This document shows positions 874 through 12,112 of a DNA stretch of 18,094 nt, piece by piece. The stretch comes from a virus: UHGV virus genome UHGV-0036730. The stretch is one strand, 5' to 3'. Within the stretch, counting starts at the first letter, position 1. Every line of letters begins with the position of its first letter. The position numbers were made by a program, and so were the translations under genes. The notes beneath the pieces are model-generated. The model saw nothing but the letters and a program-made list of their open reading frames with translations. It was not told where the DNA came from and did no database searches.

Positions 874-2903
874 TTATGCTGATTCCCGGTTTTCGTTAAC
901 TTTGACTGTGACCGTATCAAGCAGTACCGGATACGTCGCTTTTGCCCCCGTGATATCTGTCAGCGTCAGCGTATCTGCTGTAAAGCCATCATTTGTCCAC
1001 ATCACAAGGTCAAACGCNNNNNNNNNNTAAAGCCATCATTTGTCCACATCACCAGGTCAAACGCAGACTGCTCTGTATCATCAATCACCGGCACCACTTT
1101 TTCGCTGTTATTTCCCGCAAAGCGGAAAACAACTGTATGCCAGTTATGGTCAAATGCCCCAAATGTGCCCAGTTGCGCATTCGACTCCCCCTTGTGGTAC
1201 ATCAGATTCAGATTTGATGCATCCGTCTGAAGGAAGAAGGACGCCAGCATGCTGTTTGCTGTCGCGCCTGACGCCCACTGCGACACCGGCCAGTACAGAC
1301 CAAAGACAAACTGACCGTTAACCAGTTCGACACCCTCCGGGATCTTAAACCGCACGGCAATTTCACCTCCCTTACTGAGAAGATTTTTTGCCTCCTCCAC
1401 CGCAACAGTACGGAACATCTTCCAGGAGGTCAGTTTACCCGGCTGTTTTTCCAGTCGCAGCGCCTTCCTGCCACTGTCATCCGTCACAGTGCCTTTACCA
1501 CCGGACGCATTCCACTGCTGCTCTGTCCATACACCACTGCCACTGTTCGCATCATATCCGGCCACCATTCTTGTTACGGCTTCAGTATGACCGCCTGCAG
1601 AAGTACCTGCACCCTGCTGTTGCGTCGGACCCGCAGAGCCAGACTGTGCATCCCCCGTGGAGGCTGGCGTGGTCGCCAGCGGTGCAGACTGCCCGCTCAG
1701 GAACGGCAGCAAACGCCCGGCTCGCACCAGTATCTCTCCTGCCAGCCGATCTGAAACAATGCCTCTTCGCGCCCAGGAGCTGAAGTGCGTTTTACGATCG
1801 GCTGTCGTCCAGTTACCATTACTGCGTGACGCGGCACCATAGTATCCCGCCGTGATAATGTCCGGATCTTCTGACGGCTCGTTTGTCGGCACATTCGCAC
1901 CATGCTCATCCGTCATCAACGGCACAAAGTGAATATTCTGCGCCGCCTTGCCTTTATAGCCTCCGTAAACCGCCTCATACTGCACTGCATACTTCGCCTT
2001 CCAGTCGTACGTGGTGTCACCGCAAATCCACGGGACGCCGGACGTTGTCCCGCCAATACACTGGTCTGCAATATCTGCCAGGTCTGCACGGTATTTATTT
2101 ACCATGGCAAGAAAAAGTGCATTGTGCTCTGCATGTCTCCCCGAACTGACATCTTTTTCCCCCTGCATCCAGATCACCGACAACAGCACGTTTTTCGGAT
2201 TTTTCTTCAGGGCTGCACGCGTTCTGCTGACCAGGTCACGATACAACGGTTTATCCACCCCCCACAGGGAAGAGCCCGCTGTCGCACCCGACGCCTCATT
2301 AAACGCGCCCTCTGCTCCCGCAGTAAATCCCGAATCGCCACGTCCACACGGGACAAGAAGGATCCCCGCACGGGCAGGCATAAACGGCAGCAGTTTTTTG
2401 GCCACATGCAGGGCATGCCCCACACAGCCATACTGCCCTTTATTGAGGTCTGCTTTCGGGTGATTCAGATTACTCACGTCCTGCACATCATGCAGACAAT
2501 GGTCTGCAGGAATAATGTCGTTATATGCACAGGCCGCACCGCCCGGTGTCACCGTGCTGCGACGCGCCAGTTGCTTAATACGCGGGTCAGGACGATCATA
2601 CGTATCCGGCAGCGGCAGCCCCTCGCCAAAAGACATCGAGTTGGACTGCCCGGCCAGCGCAATGACAAAGTAATATTCCGGTTCGCTGGTGGTGCTGATA
2701 ACAGCGCCACCATCACCCGACGGTTGCACCACCACCGGTGTGGTGACATCACCTTCCGCCGCAATGGCCTGCATCAGGGTATAGGGCGTGATGGCCACCG
2801 GACTGCCAAATGGCTGCCACCCCTCCTTCAGTTTTTGAGTCAGTCGCTCCGCAAGGTCTGACGGCGACGCCGCCCTGACCACGTCATAGTGTTTAAATGC
2901 CAT
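874..2903 (-). CDS. nanS-p: Prophage sialate 9-O-acetylesterase NanS-p (SGNH/sialate O-acetylesterase family); reading frame interrupted by an assembly gap
   Basis: Track ORF 1002..2903: N-terminus MAFKHYDVVRAASPSDLAERLTQKLKEGWQPFGSPV… is the recalled signature of Stx-prophage NanS-p. GGAGG ribosome-binding site 5 nt upstream of the ATG at 2903. The ORF runs into the N-run at 1018..1027; if the duplicated 37-nt flank is collapsed, my manual translation continues in frame (…WTNDGF-TADTLTLTDITGAKATYPVLLDTVTVKVNENRESA) to a TAA at 874..876, so the 3' end at 874 is inferred. Confidence 0.75.
1018..1027. other. Run of 10 N (scaffold/assembly gap) flanked by a near-identical 37-nt duplication (981..1017 vs 1028..1064)
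   Basis: Direct reading: 'taaagccatcatttgtccacatcacaaggtcaaacgc' + 10 N + the same 37-mer with one mismatch (a/c at 1006 vs 1053). Confidence 0.9.
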
Positions 2904-3097
2904 GAATCCTCCCGGTCGGGATAATGTTGTGAGTCAGATGAGGGAACGGGCTGAAGTCCGGAAGTTACAGGACAATGGCAGGAGGAAGACTACAGCCCGC
3001 AATACGAAAAAGGCCGCGCTATTGCGCAGAGTGATTACTGTCGGATATTATTCGCCAGCTGAAATATTACTTCACGTTTTGTTGTTTATTCCTTGCC

Positions 3098-3127
3098 GCC
3101 CGCGTCTCCCAGCGCGGGCTTTTTTTG
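3098..3127 (+). terminator. Rho-independent terminator (plus strand)
   Basis: Stem gcccgcg (3098..3104) / cgcgggc (3113..3119), 8-nt loop, then a T-run 3120..3126. Confidence 0.5.
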
Positions 3128-3128
3128 T

Positions 3129-3157
3129 CCATAAGAAAGCCCCTCCGGAGAGGGGCT
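3129..3157 (-). terminator. Candidate rho-independent terminator (minus strand), back to back with the plus-strand terminator
   Basis: Perfect 8-bp stem agcccctc / gaggggct with cgga tetraloop (3138..3157); on the minus strand it is followed by a U-rich tract (uucuuau). Confidence 0.35.
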
Positions 3158-3475
3158 GGAGAGTGGCGCTATGTGCCATTGCATGGTGCCGGGTGCCTCC
3201 CGGTGAGTTCAGTATCAGCACCTGAACCCGCACAGAAAGGATAAGGGTCGGTGACAAAACACCAGTTGCTGATTGCCCCTCCGCACAGGGGGATTCACCA
3301 TGCCAGTTTCTTTTAACAAACTCCCCGCAAACCAGACAACAGTCAACCGCCTGAATTGTGAGGTATTTAAAAATTTCAACGGGTAACTGATACCCTGCTA
3401 ATCGCCTGATGCTTTCTTTTTCAGCAACGGGGAAGCAACAACCACCACACCCACCAGCCGCCCATTTACCACAAA

Positions 3476-3500
3476 TAAAAAAGCCTTCACTGCGGAAGGC
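3476..3500 (-). terminator. Rho-independent terminator (minus strand) directly after the 95-aa ORF
   Basis: Minus-strand hairpin gccttc-cgcagt-gaaggc followed by uuuuuuauuugu; the stop codon of the 3487..3774 ORF lies in the stem. Confidence 0.5.
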
Positions 3501-3774
3501 GTCTGTAACAACCGAACTGATAGTCTGCCAGACCCGCCATAACCAGCTGGGTCAGTATTAACTGGCAGCGTTCGCGTGAAAGGTAAGTATTCTGCGCAAT
3601 CTCCCCGACTGTCGCCGGGTAGGTGACGCTTAATTCATTAAACACCACTCTGGCGGTTTCTGTCATATCCTGCTGTTTTAGCATGTCTTTTTCCCTTTTC
3701 CGGTTAACGTGACATACCAATAACTCTTGTCTAAAAAGCCAGCAAGCTGAAAGACAGGTATTCACCACCAGCAC
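3487..3774 (-). CDS. Hypothetical protein, 95 aa or shorter, first ORF after tR'
   Basis: Track ORF. Alternative starts at 3684 (MLKQQDMTET…) or 3666 (MTETARV…). It has its own terminator. It occupies the slot where Stx phages carry tRNAs and stxAB. Confidence 0.35.
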   Translation of the reverse strand: MLVVNTCLSACWLFRQELLVCHVNRKREKDMLKQQDMTETARVVFNELSVTYPATVGEIAQNTYLSRERCQLILTQLVMAGLADYQFGCYRRLPQ

Positions 3775-3803
3775 GTTTACTGTACTGATGCGATTTCAGT
3801 CAT

Positions 3804-3830
3804 AAAAAACCCGCCAGGCGGCGGGTTTAA
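3804..3830 (-). terminator. tR'-like rho-independent terminator downstream of Q
   Basis: Minus strand: aaacccgccgcc-tggcgggttt hairpin followed by uuuuuau. About 55 bp downstream of the Q stop, as for lambda tR'. Confidence 0.55.
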
Positions 3831-3885
3831 GTTGTGTGGCGTAGTAACCACTCTTAACATACTGACATACTTTTTGCGGACCGCG
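3831..3885 (-). promoter_or_regulatory. Presumed late promoter pR' / qut region (positional inference)
   Basis: The interval between the Q stop (3886) and the tR'-like terminator is where lambdoid phages carry pR' and the Q-utilisation site. I could not pin -10/-35 hexamers. Confidence 0.3.
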
Positions 3886-4278
3886 CTAATCATTTTTTAC
3901 TTTTTTGGGCAGCCAGTCGTCCATCTCCAGCCTTACACCCAGCATCGACAGACATCCGTCAATAAATCCTTCAGCAATCTGCATCTCAATTCGTATTGCC
4001 TTTTCGCTCTTCTTTCTTGTTCTGGCAATCTGCCTTTTTGATATGCGCAGCAGATAATGAGCTACCAGCAGCGAATACTCGTCCGGTTTTTTCTTCTTCA
4101 GGCGCGTAAGGCAGTTTTCGATGATAAGGCCGTCATCATCGCTGCAGGCCGGGCGAGGTTTAGCGGTGGATGGTAAAAGGCCTTTAAATCCAGCAGCTAT
4201 CGGAGAATAGTCCACCCCGGTGTTACCACTTGCCGCCCATGCGCCCCAGCGTTCAAGCACCTGCTGAATATCACGCAT
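3886..4278 (-). CDS. Antitermination protein Q, phage 21 / QuuD-like family
   Basis: Track ORF 3886..4383 trimmed to the ATG at 4278: [37 protein letters not shown]… matches the recalled QuuD/Q21 N-terminus (MRDIQMVLERWGAWAA…). Overlaps the ninH stop by 8 nt; followed by a tR'-like terminator. Confidence 0.7.
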   Translation of the reverse strand: MRDIQQVLERWGAWAASGNTGVDYSPIAAGFKGLLPSTAKPRPACSDDDGLIIENCLTRLKKKKPDEYSLLVAHYLLRISKRQIARTRKKSEKAIRIEMQIAEGFIDGCLSMLGVRLEMDDWLPKKVKND

Positions 4279-4471
4279 CAGAGTCTTTACCCTTATCCCA
4301 TCCACGATGGACCATAAGGACACCGTTGACGACGGCGTGCCGTTTGCCTTCTTTATCGCCAATATATTTTCTGACCGTGGCACGATTACAGTTCAGTATT
4401 CGGGCCACTTCGGTCTGATTTCCATATGCCTCAACAAGCATGTCAGGAATGATTTTTACGGTGAACGTCAT
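4271..4471 (-). CDS. ninH: NinH
   Basis: [58 protein letters not shown]… is near-identical in pattern to recalled lambda NinH ([36 protein letters not shown]…). Confidence 0.8.
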
Positions 4472-8882: not shown

Positions 8883-9086
8883 TTAATCATCGCCTCTTAC
8901 GAACGCAGGGAACGGTCGAACCTCTTCCGCCTCAACTCTGCCGTCATCAAAGGTTTTGACGTAAATTTCACGTCCGACAAGAAGCGCTTTACTGATCGCG
9001 CTCTGCGCCACACCAAAGTCCTTAGCGGCTTTCTTCTGACCGAACCTGTATACGTAATCAGCCAGGGTCTCTTTTTTCATCGCCAT
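8883..9086 (-). CDS. cro: Cro repressor (lambda Cro family)
   Basis: Track ORF 8883..9122 trimmed to the ATG at 9086, which has an AAGGAG ribosome-binding site with 7-nt spacer. [60 protein letters not shown] parallels recalled lambda Cro (…[36 protein letters not shown]…AEEVKPFP). Divergent from cI. Confidence 0.8.
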
Positions 9087-9181
9087 AACTGACTCCTTCA
9101 AAATGCCCATATCATTACGCACAGTTATTAAAATGTCAACACCGCAGATATTTCATTACATATAACCAAAGGTGATATGGT
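9087..9181. promoter_or_regulatory. cI-cro divergent promoter/operator region (OR-like)
   Basis: 95-bp intergenic region between divergent cro and cI. Minus-strand TTGACA (plus tgtcaa 9134..9139) is suitably placed as a -35 for a PR-like promoter. Inverted ccatatca / tgatatgg elements (9107..9114 and 9173..9180) are candidate operator half-sites. Operators not defined with certainty. Confidence 0.4.
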
Positions 9182-9895
9182 ATGAACATGAAAAAGAAAC
9201 CGTTAACCCCTGAGCAACTGGAAGACGCCAAGCGTCTGAAAAGTATTTTTAACGCTAAAAAGAAAGAGTTAGGCCTGTCGCAGGAATCATTAGCCTATGA
9301 ATTAGGTGTTACCCAAAGCGCTGTTAATCAGCTAATGGCTGGCATCAACGCCATAAATGCCAGCCACGCAGCACAGCTTGCTAAGATACTGAATGTAAAG
9401 GTCGGAGATTTCAGTCCCAGCCTGGCAAAATCTATTGCAGAAATGGCGCTCGCAATTGAAGAGCCATTAACTCGTGTCCCCGCTTACGAATATCCGTTAC
9501 TCTCCTGCGTACAAGCTGGCGCATTCTCAATGGATGATATTTCGTACACCGCAAAAGATGCGATTAAATGGATCTCCACCACCACAAAAGCCAGTGACAG
9601 GTCGTTCTGGCTGGAGGTCAAGGGGCATTCAATGACCGCACCGCAGGGTGGTAAACCCAGCTTCCCTGAAGGTATGCTGATACTCGTTGACCCTGAACGG
9701 GAAATCGAGGATGGCGATTTTTGCGTGGCCCGAATGAACGGCGATGAATTTACCTTCAAACGATTCATTCGTGAGAGCGGTAAAGCGTACCTGGAGCCGC
9801 TCAACCCACGATTCGACATGATTGAGTGTAACGAAAACTGCCAGTTTGTCGGAAAGGTCATCAAATCGCAGTGGAATGATGATACTTTTGATTGA
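9182..9895 (+). CDS. cI: CI repressor, lambda CI family (HTH DNA-binding domain + S24 LexA-like autocleavage domain)
   Basis: 237 aa; collinear with recalled lambda CI along the whole length (KKKPLT.EQLEDA.RLK…LGLSQES…FSP……EYEYP…VQAG.FS…[33 protein letters not shown]……GDFC.AR..GDEFTFK…). Confidence 0.9.
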
Positions 9896-9991
9896 GCTCA
9901 CAGAGCGATATTAATAACCTTGCCGGGAGATGCTTGGGAAGCGATTTTCTGGCATTATTATCTGAGTTGCCCACAACCTATAGAGTCTTAC

Positions 9992-10153
9992 ATGAAAAAA
10001 TCATTTGCTGTATTGTTCGTTTTGTTGTCACTGGTAGCTTCGACTCAATCATTCGCTGGTCGTTGCCAACACGACAATGATACCGCTGCTGACGGCTCTC
10101 GTTGTGGTGGTCGTTCTGCTGATTCTCGTCCTGGCGGTGGTGGTATTCGCTAA
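9992..10153 (+). CDS. Small exported peptide (53 aa, predicted signal peptide, Gly/Arg-rich mature part with 2 Cys)
   Basis: ATG at 9992: MKKSFAVLFVLLSLVASTQSFA | GRCQHDNDTAADGSRCGGRSADSRPGGGGIR. Stop 10151..10153 is followed at once by a hairpin. An overlapping alternative-frame ORF (10077..10316) makes this call uncertain. Confidence 0.3.
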   Translation: MKKSFAVLFVLLSLVASTQSFAGRCQHDNDTAADGSRCGGRSADSRPGGGGIR

Positions 10154-10157
10154 AAAC

Positions 10158-10185
10158 AAGGCCGCTTTCCCGGCCTTTATTTCAA
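10158..10185 (+). terminator. Candidate rho-independent terminator
   Basis: Stem aaggccg / cggcctt with 6-nt loop (10158..10177) followed by a T-rich tract. Confidence 0.4.
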
Positions 10186-10332
10186 TACGTTCAGACAGAA
10201 TTTTTGGCCTGTTGTTAACTAGTAACCTGAAGAGACGTTTGGGTGATGTTTGGGTGATTTTAGTTGTGATTAACGAAAACTATGGTGCAACATCTTATAG
10301 TAAATTGTTAATATAACAAGGTATTGTATCAA

Positions 10333-11235
10333 ATGAGCCAAAATCTTGATTCAACACTAGAAACATACATCTCTTGGCAGTTAGAGCAATTTAAGGATAA
10401 ATTTTTCCCAAACTGTGACGTCATTGCGTACTACGGTGGCATCTTTCCATGGTCAAAAGAAGTTTACCAGCCAAAACTTGAAGCTATTGGTGAGATGGCT
10501 AACAGTCGTACCAATAAATTTCTTGTTATTATACTCAATACAAACGGTGGTTCTGTTGAGTCTGTAGAAAAAATGGTAGAAATTACAAGGCATTTCTACC
10601 AAGAGGTATATTTTATCATTCCAGACATGGCTATGTCGGCAGGTACAATATGGTGCATGTCTGGAGATAAAATTTACATGGACTATGCTTCTTCATTAGG
10701 ACCTATTGATCCTCAAGTGCAATCGTCGGACGGTAAATGGGTTCCCGCTTTGGGATACCTTGATAAAGTTGAAGAAATGATTAATAAATCCAGAGAAGGA
10801 ACCATTACCCAAGCTGAACTGATGATGCTTAGTCAGTTAGATCTGGCGCACTTGCGGAGATATGAGCAAGCCAGAGAACTATCAATAGACTTGCTTAAGA
10901 AATGGCTTGTGGAGTATAAATTTAGAGAGTGGACAGTTCATCAGGGTAACACAAAACGAGGAAAGCTAGTTACCAAGAGGGAAAAGGAAGCGAGGGCTAA
11001 AATGATCGCTACCGCTCTTAGTGACAACGGAAAGTGGCATTCTCACGGAAGAACGATAGGAATAAACACTCTTATCAATGATTTAAGGATAAAAGTAGAA
11101 GACTTTACATACGATAAAGATTTTAGCATGGCGTTAAAAAATATACATAACGTCATTAATGAATACATGTATAAAACAAATCGACAGGTTCTTGTTCTGT
11201 CTTCTTTCCCTTTTCCAGAACAAAGTGAGTCATAA
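10333..11235 (+). CDS. ClpP/crotonase-fold serine peptidase, S49 (SppA) / SDH-like family, no signal peptide
   Basis: Track ORF 10324..11235 (TTG) trimmed to the ATG at 10333. ILNTNGGSVESVEKMVEIT aligns with the ClpP INSPGGVITAGMSIYDTM region; IIPDMAMSAGTIWCMSGDKIYMD carries the A-x-S-x-G catalytic-serine motif (ClpP GQAASMGA / SppA AASGGY). The ClpP His position is IDPQ here, so a Ser-Lys (S49-like) mechanism is inferred. Lies in a locally AT-rich block. Confidence 0.6.
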   Translation: MSQNLDSTLETYISWQLEQFKDKFFPNCDVIAYYGGIFPWSKEVYQPKLEAIGEMANSRTNKFLVIILNTNGGSVESVEKMVEITRHFYQEVYFIIPDMAMSAGTIWCMSGDKIYMDYASSLGPIDPQVQSSDGKWVPALGYLDKVEEMINKSREGTITQAELMMLSQLDLAHLRRYEQARELSIDLLKKWLVEYKFREWTVHQGNTKRGKLVTKREKEARAKMIATALSDNGKWHSHGRTIGINTLINDLRIKVEDFTYDKDFSMALKNIHNVINEYMYKTNRQVLVLSSFPFPEQSES

Positions 11236-11406
11236 ATGAACAAAGACAAATCCCTGACACAACAAGTGGAAGAAATACTTAGCAAGCAAAAAGTTAGCGA
11301 GCAAGGAAAAATGATTCAATCATTAAAGAACAGGGGCTTGATCAACAAGCCTGTTTTTACTTTGGCTTATGGACCAGATATTACAACCTGCCAAATGCAC
11401 CAATAA
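11236..11406 (+). CDS. Small protein (56 aa) translationally coupled to the peptidase
   Basis: ATG at 11236 directly abuts the peptidase stop (TAA-ATG). MNKDKSLTQQVEEILSKQKVSEQGKMIQSLKNRGLINKPVFTLAYGPDITTCQMHQ, stop 11404..11406, then a strong terminator. Below the 60-aa cut-off of the ORF track. Confidence 0.4.
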   Translation: MNKDKSLTQQVEEILSKQKVSEQGKMIQSLKNRGLINKPVFTLAYGPDITTCQMHQ

Positions 11407-11522: not shown

Positions 11523-11867
11523 TTAAGCCCCTGTGTGATGGTTGACTTCTTTTTCCAGCGCCTTATTAACAAAGGCGTTCAGTGATAAATCTTCTTCCAT
11601 CGCCATTTCTGCTACCCGACGATGCAGTTCTGGATCAAGCCTGACGTTAAACACACCTTTAAACGGGGTATCAGGCTCCTTTCCATCCTCCACACAAGAC
11701 TGTAAATACAGCTCAACCGATGTCTTAAACTCCTGTTCCAGTTCAGCTAATGTAGAAGCCTCATAAGTTACCAGGTCTCGAATAAACGCCAGTTTTCCGT
11801 ACAGGATATTATTTTCAAAATCTGGTTCTACTGTACCTAAATACCCTTTATATTTTAGATGCTTCAT
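11523..11867 (-). CDS. hicB: HicB-family antitoxin (N-terminal HicB fold + C-terminal ribbon-helix-helix)
   Basis: 114 aa; YKGYLGTVEPDFENNILYGKL…EASTLAELEQEFKTSVELYL… then GVFNVRLDPELHRRVAEMAMEEDLSLNAFVNKALEKEV, the characteristic HicB RHH tail. ATGA overlap with the upstream hicA. Confidence 0.75.
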   Translation of the reverse strand: MKHLKYKGYLGTVEPDFENNILYGKLAFIRDLVTYEASTLAELEQEFKTSVELYLQSCVEDGKEPDTPFKGVFNVRLDPELHRRVAEMAMEEDLSLNAFVNKALEKEVNHHTGA

Positions 11868-12112
11868 AATACCCCAGCCTCTTTCAGATTCTGTTTAATC
11901 GCTTTCAGCGTTCCACCTTTAATATAACTTTCTGGATGTGGGCGATGCATTAATATGGTGTGGTTGATTTCAGCATTGAAAAACCGCACTCTTGAGCCCT
12001 GCATTTCCTTTTTGACATCTCCCAGAGAGGAAAACAAAACGACCAGCTCATCCCATTCAAACGTTTTTTTACTGTTTAAAAACTTTTCCAGTAGCTTATC
12101 TGCTTTCCCCAT
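11864..12112 (-). CDS. hicA: HicA-family toxin (mRNA interferase)
   Basis: Track ORF 11864..12118 (GTG) trimmed to the ATG at 12112. …LLEKFLNSKKTFEWDELVVLFSSLG…HTILMHRPHPESYIKGGTLKAIKQNLKEAGVL follows the HicA/YcfA pattern. Upstream of and overlapping hicB. Confidence 0.7.
   Translation of the reverse strand: MGKADKLLEKFLNSKKTFEWDELVVLFSSLGDVKKEMQGSRVRFFNAEINHTILMHRPHPESYIKGGTLKAIKQNLKEAGVL

What the first reader, a model, noticed from the sequence alone, without database searches (positions are those of the whole stretch)
9896..10316. Two overlapping small ORFs next to cI: a signal-peptide peptide and a poly-hydrophobic alternative frame
Between cI and the peptidase cassette, one frame encodes a 53-aa peptide with a textbook signal peptide and a Gly/Arg-rich, two-Cys mature part, followed at once by a hairpin. 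The overlapping frame (10077..10316) encodes a 79-aa, strongly hydrophobic single-pass membrane protein that reads through that hairpin. Either could be a lysogen-expressed exclusion factor or a type-I-toxin-like membrane peptide; only one is likely real.
Basis: seen in the sequence. Interest (0 to 1): 0.45.

Follow-up and report, generated by a model that had tools for sequence, protein, structure and literature searches.

The report
Small secreted prophage peptide plus shadow ORF
Of the two overlapping small reading frames next to the phage repressor gene, only the 53-residue one is a real gene: an already annotated but uncharacterised accessory gene for a small exported peptide, while the hydrophobic 79-residue frame is a by-product of its codon usage.

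Summary
Only one of the two ORFs is a gene.

**The real gene (9992..10153, 53 aa).** RefSeq annotates it as WP_071525586.1, "transmembrane anchored protein". It matches PHROG 14503 at E=9e-38. Across 13 enterobacterial homologues, all 25 third-codon positions of the core vary, against 7 first and 6 second positions. pN/pS is 0.13.

**The shadow ORF (10077..10316, 79 aa).** Its frame gives pN/pS 3.1. Homologues have early stops or charged residues there. Its C-terminal half lies beyond a recombination junction, and it has no homologue. Its hydrophobic run arises because 20 of the 25 overlapped codons end in T, which becomes codon position 2 in that frame.

**The product.** It has a variable Sec signal peptide with a conserved A-x-A|G cleavage site. 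The mature peptide is 31 residues, with an almost invariant two-Cys core (C-x12-C-GGRSADSRPGG).

**The family.** The core is an undescribed extracytoplasmic mini-domain with no Pfam, NCBIfam, PDB or Foldseek match. It has 408 cluster representatives across Proteobacteria and Cyanobacteria.

**Gene arrangement.** The gene always carries the same terminator hairpin. It sits in accessory-gene hot spots of different prophages and occurs in 473 of 5,426 complete E. coli genomes.

**Function.** Untested. Most likely it is a lysogen-expressed periplasmic peptide that binds a conserved envelope component.

The parts
9182..9895 (+). cI-type prophage repressor (HTH_3 + Peptidase_S24), the upstream gene on the same strand
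   Evidence: Pfam PF00717 E=9.5e-29 and PF01381 E=8.2e-10. RefSeq names it a LexA family protein, WP_001056249.1. A divergent Cro gene lies at 8883..9122 on the minus strand (PF09048).
9896..9991 (+). Intergenic spacer between cI and the peptide gene. It has no terminator. It holds a weak promoter-like site at 9934-9961 (TTGGGA-16-TATTAT) and a partial Shine-Dalgarno AGAG at 9982-9985.
   Evidence: The promoter/terminator scan found a 9-of-12 promoter-like site and no plus-strand terminator here. The sequence was read directly. This region is shared only with the other cI-adjacent copy, L002.
9992..10153 (+). Real gene: 53-aa precursor of a small exported peptide (RefSeq 'transmembrane anchored protein' WP_071525586.1; PHROG 14503)
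   Evidence: RefSeq CDS at exactly these coordinates. phrog_14503 E=8.9e-38 over the full length. 58 homologues. pN/pS 0.13, and variable sites by codon position 7/6/25.
9992..10057 (+). Signal peptide (residues 1-22), with predicted SPase I cleavage after S-F-A
   Evidence: Its sequence varies while hydrophobicity is kept. A22 and G23 are at least 90% conserved and the -3 residue is always small (A/S/V). AlphaFold models residues 3-16 or 2-22 as a helix. SignalP was not available.
10058..10150 (+). Mature 31-aa peptide GRCQHDNDTAADGSRCGGRSADSRPGGGGIR, carrying the conserved two-Cys mini-domain
   Evidence: C25, C38 and R41 are invariant, and A32, D34, G35, S36, G39, R46, G48, G49 are at least 90% conserved, in 56 sequences. 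There are 408 cluster representatives at E<=1e-3. No Pfam, NCBIfam or PDB match was found.
10158..10177 (.). Conserved G+C-rich hairpin (7-bp stem, 6-nt loop). It is terminator-like in both directions, with A-run and T-run flanks, and marks the 3' end of the mobile gene unit.
   Evidence: The terminator scan flagged it on the minus strand in the window and on the plus strand in L050. Folding gives -10.8 kcal/mol for the centroid structure. The stem AAGGCCGC/GCGGCCTT is invariant while the loop varies in five homologous loci from different contexts; the window has a 7-bp version of the stem. Homology to L002 ends right after the hairpin.
10077..10316 (+). 79-aa ORF in the +1 frame: a shadow ORF, not a gene
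   Evidence: No PHROG, Pfam, NCBIfam or PADLOC match and no tblastn match. The frame gives pN/pS 3.1 and 42% mean identity. Homologues have stops or charged residues in this frame. RefSeq does not annotate it. 20 of the 25 overlapped codons end in T.

Best explanation
**Shown**
- The locus holds one real gene, 9992..10153. It encodes a 53-aa precursor with a cleavable Sec-type signal peptide and a 31-aa hydrophilic mature peptide. The two invariant cysteines lie 13 residues apart.
- The gene and its terminator hairpin (10158-10177) travel together as a unit between temperate phages. The unit turns up in several different accessory-gene hot spots.
- The 79-aa overlapping ORF is a non-coding shadow. 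The real gene uses NNT codons (GGT, CGT, GCT, TCT), which put T at codon position 2 of the +1 frame. That spells Val/Leu/Ile/Phe.

**Inferred**
- In this prophage the gene is transcribed in the lysogen, by read-through from cI (as rexAB is in lambda) and possibly also from a weak promoter of its own.
- The precursor is exported by Sec, cut after A22 and oxidised to a disulfide loop, and the peptide stays in the periplasm.
- The core is almost unchanged from Enterobacterales to Alphaproteobacteria and Cyanobacteria. It also occurs as a tethered module on lipoproteins and on membrane proteins. The peptide therefore most likely binds a conserved component of the diderm envelope, not a fast-evolving phage protein.
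- The benefit to the lysogen is most likely envelope-level protection, for example interference with superinfecting phage entry.

**Confidence by layer**
- About 0.9 for gene identity and the shadow-ORF verdict.
- About 0.7 for a cleaved periplasmic peptide expressed in lysogens.
- About 0.25-0.3 for the envelope-binding or exclusion role.
For: **Coding frame**
- Variable sites by codon position are 7/6/25. pN/pS is 0.13 in the 53-aa frame, 3.1 in the +1 frame and 2.5 in the +2 frame. Mean amino-acid identity is 89%, 42% and 42% respectively.
- Alt-frame translations of 12 homologues are truncated or non-hydrophobic.
- RefSeq annotates only the 53-aa CDS.
- phrog_14503 matches at E=8.9e-38.

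**Signal peptide and core**
- Alignments show a variable h-region, a conserved A-x-A|G, and invariant C25 and C38.
- There is no lipobox.

**Mobile unit**
- The hairpin stem is the same in five other loci from different contexts, and the window carries a 7-bp version of it. ATGAAAAAA is invariant in all six sequences, including the window.
- In the epsilon15/P22-like contexts a strong terminator lies about 75 nt upstream of the gene, so the gene needs its own promoter.
- The contexts differ. One is downstream of cI (window, L002, L051, Tolumonas L011). One lies between the BRO-N/YafO accessory genes and the ejection/tailspike genes. One is convergent with the pilot protein in Alcaligenes phage Piluca. 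One is among tail genes in Pectobacterium.

**Lysogen expression**
- There is no terminator between cI and the gene.
- In Tolumonas the gap to a cI that is only 29% identical is 28 nt.

**Breadth and tethered forms**
- The profile search found 408 representatives.
- Genome hits fall in Alphaproteobacteria, Cyanobacteria, Burkholderiales and Myxococcota.
- Among the best 150 representatives the domain motif almost always follows a signal peptide or TM segment. It occurs alone, at the C-terminus of lipoproteins, ahead of a TM segment plus cytoplasmic domain, in tandem, and as a 4-Cys variant beside SH3_3.

**Prevalence:** 473 of 5,426 complete E. coli genomes.
Against: - There is no experimental or homology-based evidence for any function. 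PADLOC, Pfam, NCBIfam, PDB sequence search and Foldseek all returned nothing. No paper was found.
- Signal-peptide cleavage is inferred from the -3/-1 rule only; SignalP was not run.
- The plus-strand T-run after the hairpin is weak (TATTTC). The fold z-score in a 61-nt window is only -0.98, so termination efficiency in this orientation is uncertain.
- The promoter-like site is a 9-of-12 match, no better than shuffled sequence gives.
- Non-enteric homologues have no conserved gene neighbours, so context gives no functional clue there.
- The AlphaFold model of the mature part is only moderately confident (pLDDT 73-82).
Confidence: 0.6

Rival explanations
1. The 53-aa product is not cleaved. It stays anchored in the inner membrane by its N-terminal helix, as its database name 'transmembrane anchored protein' implies. 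It would then act like MgrB-type small membrane proteins, presenting a disulfide-containing periplasmic tail to a membrane sensor or transporter.
For: - Its size and layout resemble MgrB: one N-terminal hydrophobic helix, then a short periplasmic tail with two essential Cys (my own knowledge of MgrB).
- In some family members the domain follows a TM segment with no obvious cleavage site, or precedes a TM segment, so it works when tethered.
- AlphaFold models residues 3-16 as a helix.
Against: - A22 and G23 are at least 90% conserved, and the -3 residue is always A, S or V, across 56 sequences from several phyla. Selection for SPase I cleavage would produce exactly this pattern.
- The h-region is only about 13 residues long and follows MKK, which is typical of a signal peptide and short for a stable membrane anchor.
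- The h-region sequence is poorly conserved.
Confidence: 0.12
2. The peptide is a host-fitness or virulence accessory factor, not an anti-phage factor. It would protect the lysogen's envelope against host or environmental stress, as lambda Bor does for serum resistance.
For: - The strongly conserved core implies a conserved non-phage ligand.
- Family members occur in chromosomal, non-prophage settings in Alphaproteobacteria and Cyanobacteria.
- The gene sits in the lysogenic-conversion region next to tailspike and O-antigen-modifying genes in epsilon15/P22-like prophages, for example beside an acyltransferase in L055.
Against: - In the window the immediate neighbours (cI, the HicAB toxin-antitoxin pair, an SDH protease cassette; a Panacea-domain gene in L002) look more like an immunity/defence hot spot.
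- No phenotype data exist either way.
Confidence: 0.2
3. Both frames are translated: an out-of-frame overlapping gene pair, like the lambda Rz/Rz1 pair. The 79-aa product would be a membrane peptide or type-I-toxin-like protein.
For: - The ORF is open for 79 codons with an ATG start and a 25-residue hydrophobic stretch.
- In the closest relative, L002, the +1 frame is also open with a similar N-terminus.
Against: - pN/pS is 3.1 in that frame, with 42% mean identity.
- In most of the 12 homologues the frame is stopped early (L003, L004, L006, L007, L010, L011, L013) or carries D/E/P/R in the supposed TM stretch.
- Residues 34-79 lie beyond the hairpin and the homology breakpoint, so they differ completely in L002.
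- No Shine-Dalgarno sequence precedes ATG 10077.
- It has no database homologue and is not annotated.
- The hydrophobicity is explained by 20 of 25 NNT codons.
Confidence: 0.02
4. The peptide is a secreted communication signal linked to the lysis-lysogeny switch, analogous to the arbitrium AimP pro-peptide encoded next to its regulator.
For: It is a small gene with a signal peptide, placed directly beside the repressor gene in four independent loci (window, L002, L051, Tolumonas L011).
Against: - Most copies are not next to cI at all.
- A 3-kDa peptide would not cross the outer membrane unaided.
- The whole 25-residue core is conserved across phyla, with none of the phage-specific short variable signal that communication systems show.
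- No receptor-like partner gene is conserved nearby.
Confidence: 0.04

Closest known systems
PHROG 14503 / RefSeq 'transmembrane anchored protein' (e.g. WP_071525586.1, WP_000708858.1; Escherichia phage TL-2011b AEW24557.1)
   Same: The window protein is WP_071525586.1 itself (100% identity, same coordinates). It matches the PHROG profile over its full length at E=8.9e-38.
   Different: Nothing differs; it is a member. The name is only a prediction-derived label. No function has been reported, and the conserved cleavage site suggests the label 'anchored' is probably wrong.
Lambda rexA-rexB: lysogen-expressed genes co-transcribed with cI from PRM (established knowledge)
   Same: Same position immediately downstream of cI on the same strand, with no intervening terminator and a terminator at the end. 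A lysogen-expressed accessory role is likely.
   Different: There is no sequence similarity. rexAB encode a cytoplasmic sensor and a polytopic membrane protein acting in abortive infection. This gene encodes a single 31-aa exported peptide, and most of its homologues sit elsewhere in their phages.
Exported superinfection-exclusion or conversion proteins of phages: T4 Sp (spackle), phi80/N15 Cor, T5 Llp, lambda Bor (established knowledge)
   Same: All are small phage-encoded proteins with N-terminal export signals that act in the periplasm or outer membrane of the infected or lysogenic cell. Several are independently transcribed accessory genes ('morons').
   Different: No homology was detected. 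Cor, Llp and Bor are lipoproteins, and this protein has no lipobox (FAGRC). It is also much smaller (31 aa mature) and has non-phage relatives in several phyla.
MgrB-type small membrane regulators (47 aa, one TM helix, two periplasmic Cys; established knowledge)
   Same: Similar length, an N-terminal hydrophobic helix, and a short periplasmic tail with two conserved cysteines.
   Different: No sequence similarity. Here the conserved A-x-A|G site predicts cleavage and release. MgrB is chromosomal and PhoPQ-regulated, whereas this gene is phage-borne.
Excalibur calcium-binding domain (PF05901; DxDxDGxxCE motif) (recalled from memory)
   Same: Both are short extracytoplasmic Cys-containing modules with an Asp-rich ...DG..C motif. 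One distant family member (P0174) also carries an Excalibur-like stretch.
   Different: hmmscan against Pfam gave no match to Excalibur or to any other family at E<=1. The acidic positions D28 and D30 are not conserved across the wider family.
Rz/Rz1 embedded out-of-frame gene pair, and type I toxins such as Hok and TisB (established knowledge)
   Different: The +1 frame here shows no purifying selection and is not conserved. No antisense RNA family was found.

Membership tests
PHROG 14503 / RefSeq 'transmembrane anchored protein' family | Full-length profile match and identity to an annotated member | tested here: met
   phrog_14503 E=8.9e-38, residues 1-53 of 53. RefSeq CDS WP_071525586.1 sits at the same coordinates in five identical genomes.
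PHROG 14503 / RefSeq 'transmembrane anchored protein' family | Signal peptide followed by the two-Cys core C-x12-C-GGR[SA]-x-x-x-RPGG | tested here: met
   The alignments show C25, C38 and R41 invariant and the rest of the core at least 90% conserved.
Sec/SPase I-cleaved secreted protein | Positively charged n-region, hydrophobic h-region of 10-15 residues, and small residues at -3 and -1 | tested here: met
   MKK + SFAVLFVLLSLVA + STQ-S-F-A|G. A22 and G23 are at least 90% conserved, and the -3 residue is A, S or V in all homologues. This was judged by rule only; SignalP was not available.
Sec/SPase I-cleaved secreted protein | Demonstrated export and cleavage | not testable with these tools
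   Needs PhoA fusions, cell fractionation, and N-terminal sequencing or mass spectrometry.
Bacterial lipoprotein (SPase II; Cor/Llp/Bor-like) | Lipobox [LVI][ASTVI][GAS]C with Cys at +1 | tested here: not met
   The sequence before C25 is F-A-G-R (G-N in most homologues).
Phage moron (independently transcribed accessory gene) | The same gene occupies different positions in otherwise unrelated or mosaic phage genomes | tested here: met
   It lies downstream of cI. It lies in the BRO-N/YafO accessory region beside the ejection and tailspike genes. It is convergent with the pilot gene in Piluca. It lies among tail genes on the opposite strand in Pectobacterium.
Phage moron (independently transcribed accessory gene) | Its own terminator directly after the gene | tested here: met
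   A conserved hairpin stem follows the stop in all six aligned loci. The terminator scan flagged it.
Phage moron (independently transcribed accessory gene) | Its own promoter | tested here: inconclusive
   - **Window:** only a 9-of-12 match at 9934-9961, no better than shuffled sequence gives.
- **Epsilon15/P22-like loci:** an upstream terminator forces a separate promoter, and a conserved TGnTAnAnT-like motif is visible, but it falls below the scan threshold.
- **Still needed:** TSS mapping.
Out-of-frame overlapping gene pair (Rz/Rz1-like), for the 79-aa ORF | Purifying selection and conservation of the second frame across homologues | tested here: not met
   pN/pS is 3.1 and mean identity 42%. 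Seven of the 12 homologues have early stops and others carry charged residues in this frame.
Type I toxin (Hok/TisB/Ibs-like), for the 79-aa ORF | Conserved short hydrophobic ORF with its own translation signals and a cis-encoded antisense RNA | tested here: not met
   - No homologue was found.
- No Rfam match was found in 9800-10400.
- No Shine-Dalgarno sequence precedes ATG 10077.
- The ORF runs through a terminator hairpin and a recombination junction.
Known anti-phage defence systems (PADLOC) | Profile match to a catalogued defence protein | tested here: not met
   No PADLOC family matched at E<=1 for the 53-aa ORF, the 79-aa ORF, the SDH protease or the 56-aa ORF.
Excalibur Ca-binding domain (PF05901) | Pfam profile match and a DxDxDGxxCE motif | tested here: not met
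   No Pfam match at E<=1. The motif is not present as such.

The most novel reading that the evidence does not exclude
The mature peptide is the free, phage-borne form of an undescribed extracytoplasmic mini-domain that spans several phyla (C-x5-D-x-A-x-DGSRCGGR[SA]A-x-x-RPGG). The domain has no Pfam, NCBIfam or PDB relative. In this reading it binds a universal diderm-envelope component such as peptidoglycan, a lipid-linked precursor, an LPS phosphate or a metal ion. Temperate phages would have captured it as a new kind of periplasmic lysogenic-conversion or superinfection-exclusion factor, carried by about 9% of complete E. coli genomes.
Probability: 0.25. Interest if true: 0.6.

Novelty: new member of a known kind. 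Interest (0 to 1): 0.3.

Why it matters
For genome annotation the result is routine. It confirms the RefSeq call of the 53-aa gene and shows that the attractive-looking hydrophobic ORF is a codon-usage artefact. Frameshifted database entries such as P0147 read into that same frame.

The modest wider interest is that the peptide belongs to a deeply conserved small extracytoplasmic domain that nobody has described or characterised. Different temperate phages have picked it up repeatedly, and it is present in roughly one in eleven complete E. coli genomes, including Shiga-toxin prophages. If it proves to alter the cell envelope or block phage entry, it would add a very small, easily synthesised effector to the list of lysogenic-conversion factors. 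It would also give a function to a domain found from enterobacteria to cyanobacteria.

Tried and rejected
- **Family and fold searches on the 53-aa protein: all negative.**
  - Pfam and NCBIfam gave no match, and neither did eighteen distant family members.
  - PADLOC gave no match.
  - A profile search of PDB sequences gave no match at E<=10.
  - Foldseek of the AlphaFold model found nothing in PDB, and nothing meaningful in BFVD (best E=0.21).
- **Structure prediction.** The first AlphaFold run, with 34 close homologues, gave a poor model of the mature part (pLDDT 45-64). A 56-sequence alignment raised this to 73-82.
- **Literature.** Searches for the product name, the accessions, the motif DGSRCGG and 'downstream of cI' found nothing relevant.
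- **Gene neighbourhood outside Enterobacterales.** A tally over 26 non-enteric loci (102 neighbouring ORFs) found no recurrent partner. BacA, MurJ and PAP2 neighbours appear in three loci, too few to build on.
- **Known RNA.** Rfam gave no match for 9800-10400.
- **Ideas considered and dropped.**
  - Lipoprotein: there is no lipobox.
  - EF-hand or Excalibur-like Ca site: the acidic positions are not conserved in the wider family.
  - Membrane-active antimicrobial peptide: net charge is about +1 and GRAVY is -1.28.
  - C-terminal sorting signal: stand-alone versions carry no cargo.
  - Ivy-like lysozyme-inhibitor loop: the His is not conserved.
Full report
**1. What is in the sequence.**
The window is part of a lambdoid prophage of Escherichia coli. 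The stretch 9896-10330 is 100% identical to five complete E. coli chromosomes. In one of them, NZ_CP027340, it lies in an Stx1a prophage.

The immunity region reads as follows:
- Cro on the minus strand at 8883..9122 (PF09048).
- A cI-type repressor at 9182..9895 on the plus strand (HTH_3 + Peptidase_S24).
- A 96-nt spacer.
- A 53-codon ORF at 9992..10153.
- A G+C-rich hairpin at 10158-10177.
- An A+T-rich cassette (GC 33-40%) encoding an SDH-family Clp-fold serine protease (10336..11235) and an abutting 56-aa ORF.
- hicBA on the minus strand.

This includes the 79-aa ORF in the +1 frame at 10077..10316, which reads through the hairpin.

**2. Which frame is real.**
RefSeq annotates only the 53-aa ORF, as WP_071525586.1 'transmembrane anchored protein'. 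That ORF matches PHROG 14503 over its full length at E=8.9e-38. The 79-aa ORF matches nothing in PHROGs, Pfam, NCBIfam or PADLOC, and nothing by tblastn against 50,697 phage records.

A protein search returned 58 homologues of the 53-aa protein. Sources name members from E. coli, Shigella, Klebsiella, Citrobacter, Cronobacter, Franconibacter, Pantoea, Raoultella, Salmonella, Pectobacterium and Dickeya.

I took the DNA of 13 enterobacterial copies and compared the gap-free 25-codon core:

| Measure | 53-aa frame | +1 frame (79-aa ORF) | +2 frame |
|---|---|---|---|
| pN/pS | 0.13 | 3.1 | 2.5 |
| Mean pairwise amino-acid identity | 89% | 42% | 42% |

Mean nucleotide identity over the same core is 75%. 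All 25 third-codon positions vary, against only 7 first and 6 second positions.

Translating the +1 frame of each homologue shows no conserved product. The frame stops early in L003, L004, L006, L007, L010, L011 and L013. In others it carries Asp, Glu, Pro or Arg within the supposed membrane helix.

Only the first 25 residues of the 79-aa ORF are strongly hydrophobic (GRAVY 3.25, against 0.37 for the rest). Those residues are exactly the ones that overlap the real gene. There, 20 of the 25 real codons end in T (GGT, CGT, GCT, TCT, GAT). In the +1 frame that T is codon position 2, which spells Val, Leu, Ile and Phe.

The remaining 46 codons lie beyond the hairpin and beyond the point where homology to the nearest relative ends, at window position ~10180. 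In that relative (L002) hicB follows the hairpin directly.

The window holds 46 ORFs of at least 79 aa, so an ORF of this length is unremarkable. The 79-aa ORF is a shadow ORF. One database entry, P0147, is a frameshifted homologue that runs into this same frame.

**3. The product.**
The N-terminal 22 residues vary in sequence but keep the layout of a Sec signal peptide: MKK, a hydrophobic core of about 13 residues, and a small-x-small motif. A22 and G23 are at least 90% conserved, and the -3 residue is always A, S or V. There is no lipobox.

The predicted mature peptide is GRCQHDNDTAADGSRCGGRSADSRPGGGGIR. It has 31 residues, a mass of 3.09 kDa, a pI of about 8 and GRAVY of -1.28.

Its core is almost invariant. 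Across 56 sequences C25, C38 and R41 are invariant. A32, D34, G35, S36, G39, R46, G48 and G49 are at least 90% conserved. Two invariant cysteines in an exported peptide imply a disulfide loop; this is an inference.

AlphaFold with the 56-sequence alignment gives pLDDT 73-82 for the mature part. The model shows a small hairpin around DGSR followed by short turns. Foldseek finds no analogue in PDB and nothing meaningful in BFVD.

**4. A wider, undescribed mini-domain.**
A profile search of 1.84 billion cluster representatives found 408 proteins at E<=1e-3. A scan of one genome per species found the motif in:
- Alphaproteobacteria (Mesorhizobium, Rhizobium, Agrobacterium, Methylobacterium, Devosia, Microvirga);
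- Cyanobacteria (Nostoc, Anabaena, Dolichospermum and others);
- Paraburkholderia;
- a myxobacterial metagenome-assembled genome.

Among the best 150 representatives, wherever my motif pattern detected the domain it almost always followed a signal peptide or a TM segment. It occurs in several architectures:
- alone, at about 50 aa;
- at the extreme C-terminus of lipoproteins (Mesorhizobium);
- right after a signal peptide and ahead of a TM helix and a cytoplasmic domain of about 150 aa;
- in tandem;
- as a 4-Cys variant (CPCPY...NGSRCGGRSAYSRPGG..P.C) next to SH3_3.

No Pfam or NCBIfam model covers it. A profile search of PDB sequences also found nothing. Outside Enterobacterales there is no conserved neighbouring gene.

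**5. Gene organisation and mobility.**
An alignment of six loci shows the shared unit runs from ATGAAAAAA to the hairpin. The stem AAGGCCGC/GCGGCCTT is the same in five loci while the loop varies (TTTC, GAAA, AGAA, TTCG). The window carries a 7-bp version of the stem.

The unit sits in different places in different phages:

| Context | Where seen |
|---|---|
| Directly downstream of cI | Window, L002, L051, and a Tolumonas prophage whose cI is only 29% identical (gap of 28 nt) |
| Between the BRO-N/YafO accessory genes and the ejection/tailspike genes | Epsilon15/P22-like prophages of E. coli and Klebsiella, including phage TL-2011b |
| Convergent with the epsilon15 gp17-like pilot gene | Alcaligenes phage Piluca |
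| Among tail genes, on the opposite strand | Pectobacterium |

In the second context a strong terminator lies about 75 nt upstream, so the gene needs a promoter of its own there. A conserved TGnTAnAnT-like element is visible but falls below the scan threshold.

In the window no terminator separates cI from the gene. Read-through from the cI transcript is therefore the simplest route to expression in the lysogen, as for rexAB in lambda (established knowledge).

The gene or a close variant is present in 473 of 5,426 complete E. coli genomes.

**6. Most likely mechanism.**
Two things are shown. The locus holds a real, conserved gene for a small protein with an export signal. That gene moves together with its terminator between accessory-gene hot spots of temperate phages.

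The rest is inferred:
- The gene is expressed in the lysogen.
- The precursor is exported by Sec, cleaved after A22 and oxidised. The resulting 3-kDa peptide is too large for porins, so it stays in the periplasm.
- The core is under strong purifying selection and is nearly identical across phyla. It also works as a tethered module on envelope proteins. Its partner is therefore more likely a conserved envelope component than a variable phage protein.
- Its neighbours are immunity, toxin-antitoxin and other accessory genes. The payoff for the prophage is therefore most plausibly envelope-level protection of the lysogen, possibly exclusion of superinfecting phages.

This last step is a hypothesis with no direct support. 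I give it about 0.25-0.3.

**7. Rivals.**

| Rival | Main argument | Weight |
|---|---|---|
| Uncleaved, membrane-anchored MgrB-like peptide | Disfavoured by the conserved A-x-A\|G site | 0.12 |
| Host-fitness factor, not an anti-phage factor | Cannot be separated from the main model with the data in hand | 0.2 |
| True overlapping gene pair, or type-I-toxin-like 79-aa product | Effectively excluded by the frame analysis | 0.02 |
| Arbitrium-like secreted signal | Most copies are not next to cI, and there is no outer-membrane route and no receptor gene | 0.04 |

**8. Novelty and verdict.**
The gene itself is already annotated and catalogued in RefSeq and PHROGs. The specific finding therefore resolves into an ordinary small accessory gene plus a shadow ORF.

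What has not been described is the family behind it. It is a deeply conserved extracytoplasmic two-Cys mini-domain. It has no entry in the domain databases, no structure, and no paper that I could find. That makes it a reasonable but not urgent target for a simple experiment: deletion or expression, followed by a phage panel and envelope stress tests. Interest 0.3.

Noticed in passing
window 10324..11406: A+T-rich cassette (GC 33-40%) encoding an SDH-family Clp-fold serine protease (PF01972, phrog_11747) and an abutting 56-aa ORF (11236..11406) with no family match. In the relative L002 the cassette is absent and hicB follows the peptide's hairpin directly. It therefore looks like a separate insertion into the same hot spot. 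It has no PADLOC match.
   Followed up: partly
window 11523..12112 (minus strand): HicB antitoxin (11523..11867) and HicA toxin (11870..12112), a type II toxin-antitoxin pair in the region between cI and the Rha gene. L002 additionally carries a Panacea-domain gene there. This region is an accessory/defence hot spot.
   Followed up: partly
window 1002..4383: The late-regulation region runs from antiterminator Q (3886..4383, minus strand) to a NanS-p-like esterase (1002..2903, minus strand; DUF1737+SASA+DUF6645) with no stx genes and no tRNAs between them. Yet the immunity region is 100% identical to that of an Stx1a prophage in NZ_CP027340. The same immunity module therefore occurs in stx-positive and stx-negative lambdoid prophages.
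   Followed up: partly
protein P0147: This database homologue is frameshifted after ...AGNCQ and continues in the +1 frame (…RMIAPLMVRVVVVVLLIPGLVVSNN). It shows how the hydrophobic shadow frame can enter protein databases as an artefact.
   Followed up: no
window 9920..10153: A TTG at 9920 gives a 77-aa extended version of the gene. PHROG 3117 (77 aa, E=9e-34) appears to collect such over-extended calls. The extension is not conserved in other contexts, whereas ATGAAAAAA at 9992 is invariant.
   Followed up: partly
L011 2668..3870 (Tolumonas MAG): The same layout (divergent cro-like gene, S24 cI, the peptide gene 28 nt downstream, then a terminator with a T-run) occurs in an Aeromonadales prophage whose cI is only 29% identical. 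The cI-peptide arrangement is therefore either old or has arisen more than once.
   Followed up: partly
L014, L031/L038 and another non-enteric locus: Outside Enterobacterales, some copies of the mini-domain gene lie next to genes of the undecaprenyl-phosphate/lipid II cycle: BacA, MurJ and a divergent PAP2 phosphatase. There are too few cases to count as evidence, but this could hint at the ligand.
   Followed up: no
proteins P0073, P0094, P0100, P0115, P0121, P0149, P0204: A subfamily has a signal peptide, the mini-domain, the motif RNPDTDW, a TM helix, and a conserved cytoplasmic domain of about 150 aa with no Pfam match. The layout resembles a receptor.
   Followed up: no
window 1902..2861 (plus strand): A 319-aa ORF lies antisense to the NanS-p-like esterase gene. 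It is another long shadow ORF and shows how common such ORFs are in this window.
   Followed up: no
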